Shown piece after piece: positions 19,675 to 42,885 of a DNA stretch of 64,000 nucleotides. Source of the DNA: Octopus vulgaris (taxonomy: Eukaryota); the NCBI GenBank assembly GCA_951406725.2, contig OX597815.1:67084001-67148000 (forward strand), read 5' to 3'. How positions within the stretch are numbered: position 1 is the stretch's first letter; every line of letters starts with the position of its first letter. Made by a program: the position numbers and the translations under genes. The notes beneath the pieces were generated by a model that searched no databases, was not told the DNA's origin, and saw nothing but the letters and a program-made list of their open reading frames with translations.

Positions 19675-20070
19675 TGTAGGTAGAGATACAACAGGAGCCA
19701 CTCCTACTATAAATTCTTCCTATGACCTTAAACGATACTAAACCCAACCACACACACACAGACACACGTGCTATCGTTACACACACACACGTACACACAC
19801 ACACACAGACATGCGCGCACGCACACACGCACACACATACACACACACATACCTCCTTCTCTTGTCTTTGAAAGAACTTTTTCTTCACCCATTCCCTTCC
19901 GGTCATTCAATATGTGACCGCGTGTGTATCTTTCCTTTTTCTATGTTTCTGACGAAGAGCACTGCTCGAAACGTTAAATCCTCCTTCTTTCTTTCCTTTC
20001 CTGAACGTCCAATAACACTATACTTGTTCCACGTCCTCGTGTTGTTGTGTTTTCATGTTTAGATTAACAA
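19675..20070 (+). mobile_element. Short non-autonomous Penelope-type terminal repeat between microsatellites
   Basis: Carries a minimal HHR and is bounded by (TA)n/(TG)n. Confidence 0.6.
19945..19979 (+). ncRNA. Minimal type I hammerhead ribozyme (canonical core)
   Basis: TTT-CTGACGA-A-GAGC-ACT-GCTC-GAAA-CG-TT^AAA; palindromic AACGTT stem III typical of Penelope dimeric HHRs. Confidence 0.8.
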
Positions 20071-38474: not shown

Positions 38475-38518
<44 letters not shown>

Positions 38519-38520
<2 letters not shown>

Positions 38521-38710
38521 CGGAGATGTACTCGCATAGCAAGTGATTTGATCTGAGATCGTGCGCTGAAACGAAAACAATTGCAGTGTGGAAGGTGTTT
38601 GTAAGCCATTTAAGAAACACACAAAAGCCGTTCGATTCACTTCAACATTTAAGTTTAATTTGTCAAAATATTTTCGTCGCTAAAATCCGCGACCTGTTTA
38701 CTGACAAAAA
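38519..38710 (-). mobile_element. Penelope-type terminal repeat, second locus of the 41953-42275 family
   Basis: Near-identical to the reverse complement of 42093-42275; in (TA)n; HHR-like fold at 38659-38708 with core GTAAACA. Confidence 0.75.
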
Positions 38711-38732
38711 TATATATATGTATGTGTGTGTG

Positions 38733-38799: not shown

Positions 38800-39066
38800 T
38801 TATTATAAAAGGCAGATTTTATCTGCCTCCCTTTGGGAGTTATACAAATCTACAATATAGGATTTCTTCAATTACAATTTACCTAGCAATTTTAAGAGTA
38901 CAATGCATCGCGTCATGCCAGCTCCAGTTTTTTAAATTTAAACTCCAATTAAGCAAAATTTACAGAAAACTCACATTCTGGTGTGTGTGTCAAATGCTTT
39001 TCTTAGTCTGGTTTACATCACACGCAAACGCACACACACAGTGGGCAACGAATAAAATGAAAGTAA
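38797..39066 (+). mobile_element. Helitron-like 5' fragment, duplicated at 40927-41195
   Basis: TC...TATAAAA start; near-identical to 40927-41195. Confidence 0.6.
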
Positions 39067-40270: not shown

Positions 40271-40289
40271 CACTACTGCGCTATGTATA

Positions 40290-40926
40290 TCTATATATAT
40301 AAAACTGTAGTTGTGTGAGTGTCTGTCCCCTTCGATTTAGATTCCTAACTACTCCCACATTTTGCGGTGCAGTTTAACCAAATTCGGGTAGCTTATAGTC
40401 GTGATTCATATCGAGCCCGTCTGAGTATTAGCGCGCGTCTACGATGAGTCTACGATTTTAAAAATAATTTAACATCATTTTTTATTCCATTTTAATGCAT
40501 AATTTTTCGTGTGTCGATGGCGGTGGAGTTGGCGTCCACGCTCACACCTGCACCTGTGGGGAAGGGAGTGTAAGGAAATCAACGTCGTAATGCGTTGTCA
40601 AGGAGACCAGCGTTCTTTTAGAACAACGACTTCATGGCTTGAAGACACCAAAACAGAAATGGCTAAGAAAGCGTCTACATGAGTCTACGATTTAAAAAAA
40701 AATTTACCATCGTTTTTTTTCCATTTTAATGCATTTTTTCGCTATTATATAAGGGAAGTAACTCTCTAAAAATGTCTACGATGAGTCAACGATTTAAAAA
40801 AAAATTTACCATCATATTTTTTCCATTTTTAATGCATTTTTTGCTATTTTTTGGCTATAACTCTCTAAAAATGCTTATATAGTTATTTCCCTTACAAACC
40901 CGAGCAACGCCGGGCGATGCTGCTAG
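40290..40926 (+). mobile_element. Non-autonomous Helitron with internal tandem repeats
   Basis: A|TC start; hairpin cccgagcaacgccggg; CTAG|T end; three 'tctacgatgagtctacgattt' units. Confidence 0.82.
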
Positions 40927-41195
40927 TCTTATTATAAAAGGCAGATTTTATCTGCCTCCCTTTGGGAGTTATACAAATCTACAATATAGGATTTCTTCAA
41001 TTACAATTTACCTAGCATTTTTAAGAGTACAATGCATCGCGTCATGCCAGGTCCAGTTTTTAAAATTTAAACTCCAATTAAGCAAAATTTACAGAAAACT
41101 CACATTCTGGTGTGTGTGTCAAATGCTTTTCTTAGTCTGGTTTACACCACACGCAAACGCACACACACAGTGGGCAACGAATAAAATGAAAGTAA
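40927..41195 (+). mobile_element. Helitron-like 5' fragment abutting the CTAG end of the preceding Helitron
   Basis: Starts TCTTATTATAAAAGG immediately after CTAG; copy of 38797-39066. Confidence 0.6.
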
Positions 41196-41304
41196 TTCAC
41201 TTACTGTAGTGAGTGATTCTTTCACTCTGCCTCCCACTTCCTCTTTCCACACATAGACACGCAAATATATAAAGAAAATTGTAAGCTAACGTGCGTGTGT
41301 GTGA

Positions 41305-41341
<37 letters not shown>

Positions 41342-41952
41342 TGAGGGTGCGTGTGTGTGTGTGTGTGTGTGCGTGTGCGTGAGTGTGTGACAGGAAAGTT
41401 TTTTACGACGAATATAACACCTATATCCAAGTAGCAGAAAGATAAGACAGTAAGGTGTGATTTGGGGGAAATTTGGCTGCTATTTCTACCAGGTCTAGCT
41501 ACCATGTAGAGGTCCCCCTCATTGGCTCATATATATATACATACATAAGACAGTAAGGTGTGATTTGAGGGAGATTTGGCTGCTGTTTCTACCAGGTCTG
41601 TTAGGCCTTCTCATGTAAACTCAAGCTTTCTCATGCCTTGAACATAAGACCAAAGCAGAGAATGTATTCTTTTATTCTTCTGCTTTTTCCAGCCATTGGT
41701 CTGTGGCCATGCTGGGGCAATGCCTTGAAGAATTGTAGTTTAATGAATCAACTCCAGTTTTATTTTTGTAAGCATTGTACTTATTCTATCTGTTTCCTTT
41801 GTCAAACCACTAGGTGACAGGGATGTAAACAAACCAACATTCGTTGTCAAGCAGTGGTGGAGGACAATCACAAGCACAGACACGCACACACACACACATA
41901 CATGCATACACACATACATACATACATATATATATATGTGTGTATATATATA

Positions 41953-42275
41953 TTGCAGCGTGGAAGGTGTTTGTAAGCCATTTAAGAAACACACAAAAAC
42001 CGTTACATTCACTTCAACATTTAAATTTAATTTGCCAAAATATTTTCGTCGCTTTGAGACCGCGACCTGTTCACTGACAAAAATATCGTGCTAACAGGTC
42101 GCGGTCTCAAAGCGACGAAAATATTTTGACAAATTAAATTTAAATGTTGAAGTGAATCTAACGGTTTTTGTGTGTTTCTTAAATGGCTTATAAACACCTT
42201 CAACGCTGCAACTGTTTTCGTTCCAGCACACGATCTCAGATCAAGTCACTTGCTATGCAAGTACATCTCTGTAAC
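41953..42275 (+). mobile_element. Penelope-type fold-back (arms ~41953-42071 / 42093-42211) plus 3' tail, in (TA)n
   Basis: Near-perfect inverted repeat with a short spacer; the right arm continues into a tail shared with 38519. Confidence 0.8.
42031..42081 (-). ncRNA. Type I hammerhead motif with swapped G3:C8 core
   Basis: Minus strand TTTGTCA-GTGAACA-G-GTCGC-GGTCTCAAA-GCGAC-GAAA-ATAT-TT^TGGCAAA: 7-bp stem I, 5-bp stem II, palindromic stem III. Confidence 0.65.
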
Positions 42276-42375
42276 TACATATATATTTATATATATATAT
42301 ATATATGTATATTGGTAAAAACAGTAAGATAACAAAAGAAAGAAAGAGACCTCAATATTATGTAAATAGAGGAAA

Positions 42376-42885
<510 letters not shown>

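What the first reader, a model, noticed from the sequence alone, without database searches (positions are those of the whole stretch)
42031..42081. Natural hammerhead variant with a swapped G3:C8 catalytic-core pair
Seen (minus strand): 7-bp stem I, GTGAACA, one extra purine, 5-bp stem II (GTCGC/GCGAC), GAAA, palindromic AATATT and a UUU cleavage triplet. This is the same layout as the canonical minimal HHR at 19945, but with C3->G and G8->C together. Established: C3-G8 is a Watson-Crick tertiary pair in the active hammerhead, and compensatory swaps can retain activity. A second locus (38659-38708) keeps G3/C8 and both stems while changing loop II (GGATTTTA), although it has G5->A. Inference: a repeat family using a rare core that CUGANGA-based searches would not detect.
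Basis: partly seen in the sequence, partly recalled or inferred. Interest (0 to 1): 0.88.

Follow-up and report, generated by a model that had tools for sequence, protein, structure and literature searches.

The report
Retroelement hammerhead with swapped G3:C8 pair
Thousands of copies of a young octopus jumping gene carry a miniature hammerhead RNA motif whose paired core letters are swapped (G3:C8 instead of C3:G8) while its closest relative keeps the usual pair, so it is likely a natural, weakly self-cutting variant known so far only as a lab-made mutant in the papers searched, although cutting has not been shown.

Summary
The motif is the pseudo-LTR hammerhead of a young Penelope-like retroelement (Neptune/Nematis type): a 19-nt core pattern has 6,427 exact matches, and 93 of the first 100 are G3:C8. 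It lies 92 nt before the start codon of an RT/GIY-YIG ORF and again behind it. The sister family in the same genome (57% protein identity) has C3:G8 at the same place and a compensatory stem II change. Five more distant relatives have C3:G8 (3) or U3:A8 (2); 11 of 17 loci gave no hit. So the 3:8 pair covaries in nature. Cleavage is unproven: 56 of 99 copies start just upstream of the motif and only 4 near the cut site, but canonical-core families show no clear peak either. The window's copy is probably inert: a passenger in a Helitron-like repeat, buried in a 119-bp hairpin. The G5A in the second copy is a rare copy-level mutation. Natural U3:A8 is published; I found G3:C8 only as an engineered mutant, but could not read Lünse 2017. 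This scan noted G3:C8 earlier in protist elements and a phage.

The parts
42031..42081 (-). Minimal type I hammerhead motif with G3:C8 core pair (G3 42074, C8 42069, extra G 42067); predicted cut between 42038 and 42037
   Evidence: covariation with relatives
41953..42092 (-). pLTR copy of the Penelope-like element, from about 6 nt after the inferred transcription start to the first (short) 3' end, followed by (TA)n
41953..41981 (-). First nine codons of the element's ORF (ATG at 41981-41979); the frame runs on into the RT/EN protein in L125
42093..42274 (+). Inverted, 5'-truncated second pLTR copy; starts inside the core (at A6), so it has no complete hammerhead; carries the roughly 60-nt tail; pairs with the other arm over 119 bp
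40927..42769 (+). About 1.84-kb Helitron-like non-autonomous repeat (5' TC, 3' hairpin plus CTAG before T) that carries and has multiplied this insertion; Helitron label from recalled hallmarks
   Evidence: 30 of 30 loci share the flanks; ends
38518..38712 (-). Independent pLTR copy of the commoner subfamily (loop II GGATTTTA), G3:C8 kept, G5A copy-level mutation, full tail, (TA)n on both sides
19945..19979 (+). Canonical C3:G8 minimal hammerhead of an unrelated repeat family (used as control)

Best explanation
The motif is the minimal hammerhead in the pseudo-LTR of a young Penelope-like retroelement family whose C3:G8 core pair has been replaced by G3:C8, and it likely still cuts RNA weakly, as a dimer and probably with help from the element's protein. 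Shown: the anatomy, its place 92 nt before the start codon and again behind the ORF, and pairing of positions 3 and 8 in every relative where a hammerhead was found. Inferred mechanism: transcription starts about 23 nt before G3 on a capped RNA; stems I and II fold at once; stem III can form only when two AAUAUU palindromes pair, for example the two pLTR copies of a read-through transcript; a cut after UUU would remove the capped first 59 nt or release unit-length RNA. Most insertions were copied from uncut RNA by internal priming, so cutting is a minor or late event and is not needed for insertion. The window copy itself is predicted to be inert.
For: RT motifs, CX3CxxC linker and GIY-YIG (PF01541, E 1.5e-5) lie about 1 kb upstream of the motif in the same orientation in 10 of 16 long loci; the pLTR runs into the ORF start in L124 and L125. 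The sister family has its hammerhead in both pLTRs, 135 nt before a homologous ATG, in 8 of 8 long copies, with C3:G8, the same extra G and stem II GTCAC/GTGAC against GTCGC/GCGAC. With positions 3 and 8 unscored, 6 of 17 related loci gave a hit, each beating 50 of 50 shuffles: C:G x4, U:A x2. In alignment A2 the 3:8 pair is Watson-Crick in 9 of 9 rows (CG 5, GC 2, UA 2). A quick tree puts the family next to the C3:G8 sister (SH-aLRT 99) and the two U3:A8 loci apart, which suggests three separate double changes. Stems I and II have probability 0.65-1.0 when folded from the inferred start. In a lizard PLE hammerhead the C3G/G8C double mutant partly restores cleavage that single mutants lose, and cleavage needs the protein (PMC11167929, section 3 read whole). 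Position 17 is U, not C, which suits G3 (PMC3884650, passages).
Against: No cleavage assay and no raw RNA reads. Only 4 of 99 copies chosen by sequence 3' of the cut site begin within positions -2 to +2 of it (1 exactly), whereas 56 begin 15-29 nt before G3. The controls are alike (sister 3 of 30 near the site, canonical family 0 of 30; Fisher p=0.35), so this does not single out G3:C8, but it gives no sign of cleavage. The AAUAUU duplex is worth only -0.2 kcal/mol and the cofold minimum is another pairing. The lab G3:C8 swap gives only partial rescue (PMC8495972 passage; PMC11167929). The route from C:G to G:C needs two transversions through an unpaired state. Some relatives have lost or damaged the motif: 11 of 17 gave no hit, and L205-L208 show AAAA for GAAA by eye. 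Inside the family, conservation does not beat the flanks (p=0.15). The rows of A2 were picked by a descriptor that demands stems, so only the 3:8 count is unbiased.
Confidence: 0.62

Rival explanations
1. A hammerhead descendant that no longer cuts at a useful rate. The fold, including the 3:8 pair, is kept for a structural job at the 5' end of the element's RNA (protein binding, translation control), or the swap is a relic fixed by hitch-hiking in a successful lineage.
For: Copies derive from uncut RNA. Hammerhead mutants do not affect insertion in vitro (PMC11167929) and Naiad elements thrive without canonical hammerheads (PMC8557442, passages). Relatives tolerate other core changes: C9 in the sister and L197, U15.1-A16.1 in L200.
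Against: U4, G5, A6, A13 and A14 are invariant in the aligned relatives while stems are freely exchanged, and the 3:8 pair forms only in the active fold (established knowledge, recalled; PMC3088659 section 8). Three separate compensatory changes are hard to get without selection on that fold.
Confidence: 0.28
2. The copy at 42031 is itself a working ribozyme that cuts a host transcript, kept or spread for that function.
For: All 40 scored of 874 candidates match its 138 nt at 100%, and its core is intact.
Against: Those copies share the same flanks (30 of 30 examined) and are passengers of a 1.84-kb repeat. In read-through RNA the 119-bp hairpin (-216 kcal/mol) leaves the hammerhead stems a probability of 0.000. 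The opposite arm lacks G3-U4-G5 and lies on the other strand, so it cannot be the dimer partner.
Confidence: 0.05
3. Chance resemblance: short stems in an AT-rich palindromic repeat mimic a hammerhead.
For: No hammerhead family among the 150 listed of 197 Rfam matches in the window or the 4 matches on a typical copy; the window piece folds at z -1.3.
Against: Rfam also lists nothing for the canonical motif at 19945. There were no hits in shuffles. The motif sits where relatives carry canonical hammerheads.
Confidence: 0.03

Closest known systems
Minimal type I hammerheads (min-HHR) of metazoan Penelope-like elements (Cervera and de la Pena 2014, PMC4209133; parts 1-2 of 4 read, supplement file 2 searched)
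   Same: In pLTRs; extra nucleotide between 9 and 10.1; G10.1-C11.1; palindromic 15/16 region; predicted dimer; mostly lone truncated copies, some as close inverted pairs.
   Different: Their consensus is CUGANGA and the reported core covariation is U3:A8; here it is G3:C8, with a longer (7-bp) stem I.
Natural U3:A8 hammerheads (Perreault 2011, PMC3088659, section 8 and passages read)
   Same: Compensatory change of the 3:8 pair in nature.
   Different: U:A keeps pyrimidine at 3 and purine at 8 (two transitions); G:C inverts them (two transversions).
Engineered C3G/G8C double mutant, including the PAc (Anolis Poseidon) hammerhead (PMC11167929, section 3 read; PMC8495972, one passage)
   Same: Same base swap; same two-ended 'tail' and internal priming signature of the host element.
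   Different: Here the swap is the wild-type state of a family with thousands of copies; the hammerhead lies wholly in the 5' UTR rather than across the start codon.
EN+ Penelope-like elements of the Neptune/Nematis type (PMC8557442, passages and supplement searched)
   Same: RT then CX2-5CxxC linker then GIY-YIG; pLTR-ORF-pLTR; inverted 5'-truncated copy; one-sided tail; (TA)n targets.
   Different: Clade not placed against reference elements; the tail is about 60 nt rather than 30-40; this core 13-mer was not found in that paper's supplement (file cut when stored).

Membership tests
Hammerhead ribozyme (minimal type I, PLE) | Stems I and II around the core in type I order | tested here: met
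Hammerhead ribozyme (minimal type I, PLE) | Literal consensus C3 and G8 | tested here: not met
   G3 and C8 in 93 of first 100 matches, C3:G8 in none
Hammerhead ribozyme (minimal type I, PLE) | Watson-Crick pair between 3 and 8 | tested here: met
   G:C here; C:G or U:A in 6 of 6 related hits with the positions unscored
Hammerhead ribozyme (minimal type I, PLE) | U4 G5 A6 A9, G12 A13 A14, A15.1-U16.1, H17, G10.1-C11.1 | tested here: met
   the 38659 copy fails at G5
Hammerhead ribozyme (minimal type I, PLE) | Palindromic stem III and extra nucleotide after A9 | tested here: met
   AATATT and G at 42067; dimer energetics marginal
Hammerhead ribozyme (minimal type I, PLE) | Match to an Rfam hammerhead model | tested here: inconclusive
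   No listed hit, but none for the canonical 19945 motif either
Hammerhead ribozyme (minimal type I, PLE) | Site-specific self-cleavage | not testable with these tools
   Only assembled contigs available; genomic 5' ends show no peak in this or control families
EN+ Penelope-like element | Single ORF with RT and C-terminal GIY-YIG | tested here: met
   1025-aa open frame; GIY-YIG above Pfam cut-off; RT by motifs and homologs, no Pfam RT hit for this protein
EN+ Penelope-like element | pLTRs, inverted 5'-truncated copies, optional tail | tested here: met
Neptune clade | CX2-5CxxC linker and phylogenetic placement | tested here: inconclusive
   Linker CQSNCAVC present, shared with Nematis; no tree with reference clades
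Non-LTR retrozyme | Head-to-tail tandem non-coding units bounded by hammerheads (definition from abstracts) | tested here: not met
   Copies are dispersed single or inverted pLTR stubs of a coding element

The most novel reading that the evidence does not exclude
An active animal retroelement family runs on a fully inverted G3:C8 hammerhead that is a deliberately weak, protein-gated switch at the capped 5' end of its mRNA: uncut RNA serves as template and message, and a cut removes the cap. Penelope hammerheads would then be selected for 3:8 pairing and not base identity, and surveys built on CUGANGA would have missed whole families, including elements now scored as lacking a ribozyme.
Probability: 0.3. 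Interest if true: 0.72.

Novelty: new variant of a known kind. Interest (0 to 1): 0.52.

Why it matters
It supplies natural comparative support for the C3-G8 tertiary pair in its most drastic form, with a sister family in the same genome as a built-in control. It shows that one of the commonest minimal hammerheads in this genome sample is invisible to standard descriptors. It also gives a testable handle on the open question of what Penelope hammerheads do: two young sister families with different cores, mapped RNA starts and thousands of insertions.

Tried and rejected
Rfam scans gave no hammerhead hit. The first DNA search returned only passenger copies, rejected as independent evidence. MITE reading rejected: arms are of variable length and the sequence continues into an RT ORF. 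A 3' splice-site reading of the CAG/ATG at the 5' cluster was considered; no shared upstream exon appears among short copies, so a transcription start is preferred, not proven. A DNA search with only the downstream 78 nt returned nothing because its words are too common. No RNA holder listed on record; runs were contigs only, so no start, end or strand. In 4 runs labelled as four organisms no other letter at 3% or more was listed at 42074 or 42069, but cover there is thin. Pfam found nothing useful on four ORF fragments. A search with P0001 returned only the two known families among the rows I could place (loci not inspected one by one). Within-family conservation test not significant. The careful tree did not finish; the quick tree was used. 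RNA cofold did not give the double-hammerhead as minimum. Not held: Lunse 2017, Przybilski and Hammann 2007, Martick and Scott 2006. Supplement file 1 of PMC4209133 was not searchable, and bioRxiv supplements are closed; either could list G3:C8.

Full report
Observation. The motif is present as described on the minus strand at 42081-42031. It is the only window hit of a descriptor with free positions 3 and 8 at stem I of 5 bp or more. A strict minimal descriptor on 600 kb of evenly spaced stretches plus the window gave 6 hits, 4 of them this G3:C8 family, and none in two shuffled sets. The second locus has G5A, which is rare in the family (G5 in 104 of 108 pieces, not de-duplicated). The hammerhead at 19945 is canonical but belongs to another family.

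Local context. The motif is in one arm of a 119-bp inverted repeat. The other arm starts at A6 and lacks the 5' half. A read-through RNA folds into one long hairpin in which the hammerhead stems have probability 0.000. The 40 best-scored of 874 candidates are identical over 138 nt, but all 30 examined share the same flanks: the insertion rides in a 1.84-kb repeat, 40927-42769, with Helitron-like ends (label from recalled hallmarks). These copies are therefore one insertion event, and this copy is probably inert.

The family. The 38518-38712 copy leads to independent insertions with a fixed 3' end before (TA)n, variable 5' ends and frequent inverted partial copies, and with two 3' ends about 60 nt apart. 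These are the published marks of Penelope-like elements (PMC8557442, passages; PMC11167929, section 3 read whole). Longer copies run upstream through about 1 kb of microsatellite-rich UTR into an ORF with RT motifs, a CX3CxxC linker and GIY-YIG; 10 of 16 long loci show the RT or EN piece upstream of the pLTR in the same orientation. In L124 and L125 the pLTR runs on into the ORF, whose ATG lies 92 nt after G3. A 19-nt core pattern with N at 3 and 8 has 6,427 exact matches and none for the reversed control; the first 100 listed are 93 G:C, 2 G:G, 2 G:U, 1 G:A, 1 U:C, 1 C:C and no C:G. Among 219 distinct copies, 214 are G:C (sample biased by the searches). A homolog labelled Octopus vulgaris matches this genome at 100%, so the host is an octopus.

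Covariation. That homolog defines a sister family (57% identity; 1,672 matches of a 39-mer). In 8 of 8 long copies it has a hammerhead in both pLTRs, 135 nt before a homologous ATG. Its core is CUGAUGC: C3:G8, C9, the same extra G, and stem II GUCAC/GUGAC against GUCGC/GCGAC. From 31 metagenome loci I scanned the 16 whose match reached the end of the ORF, plus one sister locus, with positions 3 and 8 unscored. Six of 17 gave a hit, each above 50 of 50 shuffles: C:G in L199, L200, L203 and the sister, U:A in L197 and L214. Of the 11 misses, three have under 130 nt of flank and four (one family) show C3:G8 with AAAA in place of GAAA by eye. In an untouched MAFFT alignment U4, G5, A6, A13 and A14 are invariant and the 3:8 pair is Watson-Crick in 9 of 9 rows; two rows are this family, and stem counts are biased by the descriptor. 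A quick tree of 13 proteins groups this family with the sister (99) and L199 (80), and separates the two U:A loci. G3:C8 is thus most likely derived from C3:G8, and about three independent compensatory changes are implied. Inside the family, shared changes fall in loop II (4 of 8 positions) but core and stems do not differ significantly from flanks (1 of 42 vs 8 of 72, p=0.15).

What the insertions say about the RNA. I took the first 100 of 2,836 exact matches to a 36-mer lying 3' of the cut site and recovered 99. Fifty-six start 15-29 nt before G3 (41 within four positions), 14 run on into the UTR, and 4 start within two positions of the cut site. Twelve of the 13 that start 23 nt before G3 are preceded by G where the template has C (p 6e-7). 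One of these is a duplicate, and in about seven the G could come from the inverted arm; 4 of the 5 remaining still have G. I infer a capped transcription start there, with the cap copied as an extra G (mechanism recalled from other retroelements). So most templates were uncut. Controls behave alike: the sister has 3 of 30 starts near its cut site and a cluster 63-69 nt before C3, and the 19945 family has 0 of 30 (p=0.35). This matches PAc, where uncut RNA is the main template (PMC11167929), and says nothing specific against G3:C8.

Mechanism. Shown: anatomy, position, covariation. Inferred: folding of stems I and II from the start site (0.65-1.0); dimer formation through AAUAUU, which is energetically marginal (-0.2 kcal/mol) and would need tandem context or protein; weak cleavage after UUU, since the engineered swap gives partial rescue (PMC11167929; PMC8495972 passage) and U17 avoids the G3-C17 context reported as less active (PMC3884650 passage, data not shown there). 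I put weak real cleavage at about 0.6 and a non-cutting structural descendant at about 0.3.

Comparison and novelty. Minimal palindromic hammerheads with an extra nucleotide in pLTRs, and natural U3:A8, are published (PMC4209133, parts 1-2 of 4 and supplement file 2; PMC3088659, section 8). Searches for G3-C8, C3G with G8C, and GUGANCA-type strings found the swap only as an engineered mutant. Lunse 2017, which by its title covers numerous small PLE hammerhead variants, was not held, so prior report there cannot be excluded. Unchecked notes of this scan describe G3:C8 in three other PLE loci (two called protist) and a phage, and A3:U8 in another octopus family; they are leads, not support. Verdict: a real, new variant of a known kind with good comparative support, unproven activity, and an inert copy at the given coordinates. 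Interest 0.52.

Noticed in passing
L258-L265 (sister family pLTRs): Very young sister PLE family with 1310-1312-aa open frames; its hammerhead has C3:G8 but a fixed C9 and an imperfect palindrome (AGAACT).
   Followed up: partly
L296-L378, about 23 nt before G3: Sharp cluster of 5' ends with an extra G, suggesting reverse transcription up to the cap of a Pol II transcript in a Penelope-like element.
   Followed up: partly
window 40927-42769: Helitron-like 1.84-kb repeat that captured a PLE inverted insertion and spread it (874 candidates); related pieces at 38800-39066 and 40289-40936.
   Followed up: partly
L200:4964-5018: Related PLE hammerhead with C3:G8 and an inverted U15.1-A16.1 pair, palindrome TAGCTA.
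   Followed up: no
L204, about 130 nt after the ORF end: Possible A3:U8 core (ATGACTA, extra G, GCCC/GGGC stem, palindrome ATGCAT) with extra A's before GAAA and a weak stem I; not scored by the descriptor.
   Followed up: no
L205-L208, about 150 nt after the ORF end: C3:G8 core with AAAA in place of GAAA in four near-identical contigs.
   Followed up: no
window 19945-20060: The canonical hammerhead is a copy that matches its family only from about 21 nt before C3; a 26-mer of it has 74 exact matches. L041 and L053 show this family's motif right next to G3:C8 copies.
   Followed up: partly
window, many places: All strong Rfam matches are microRNA models hitting (CA)n/(TA)n microsatellites, below gathering scores.
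   Followed up: no
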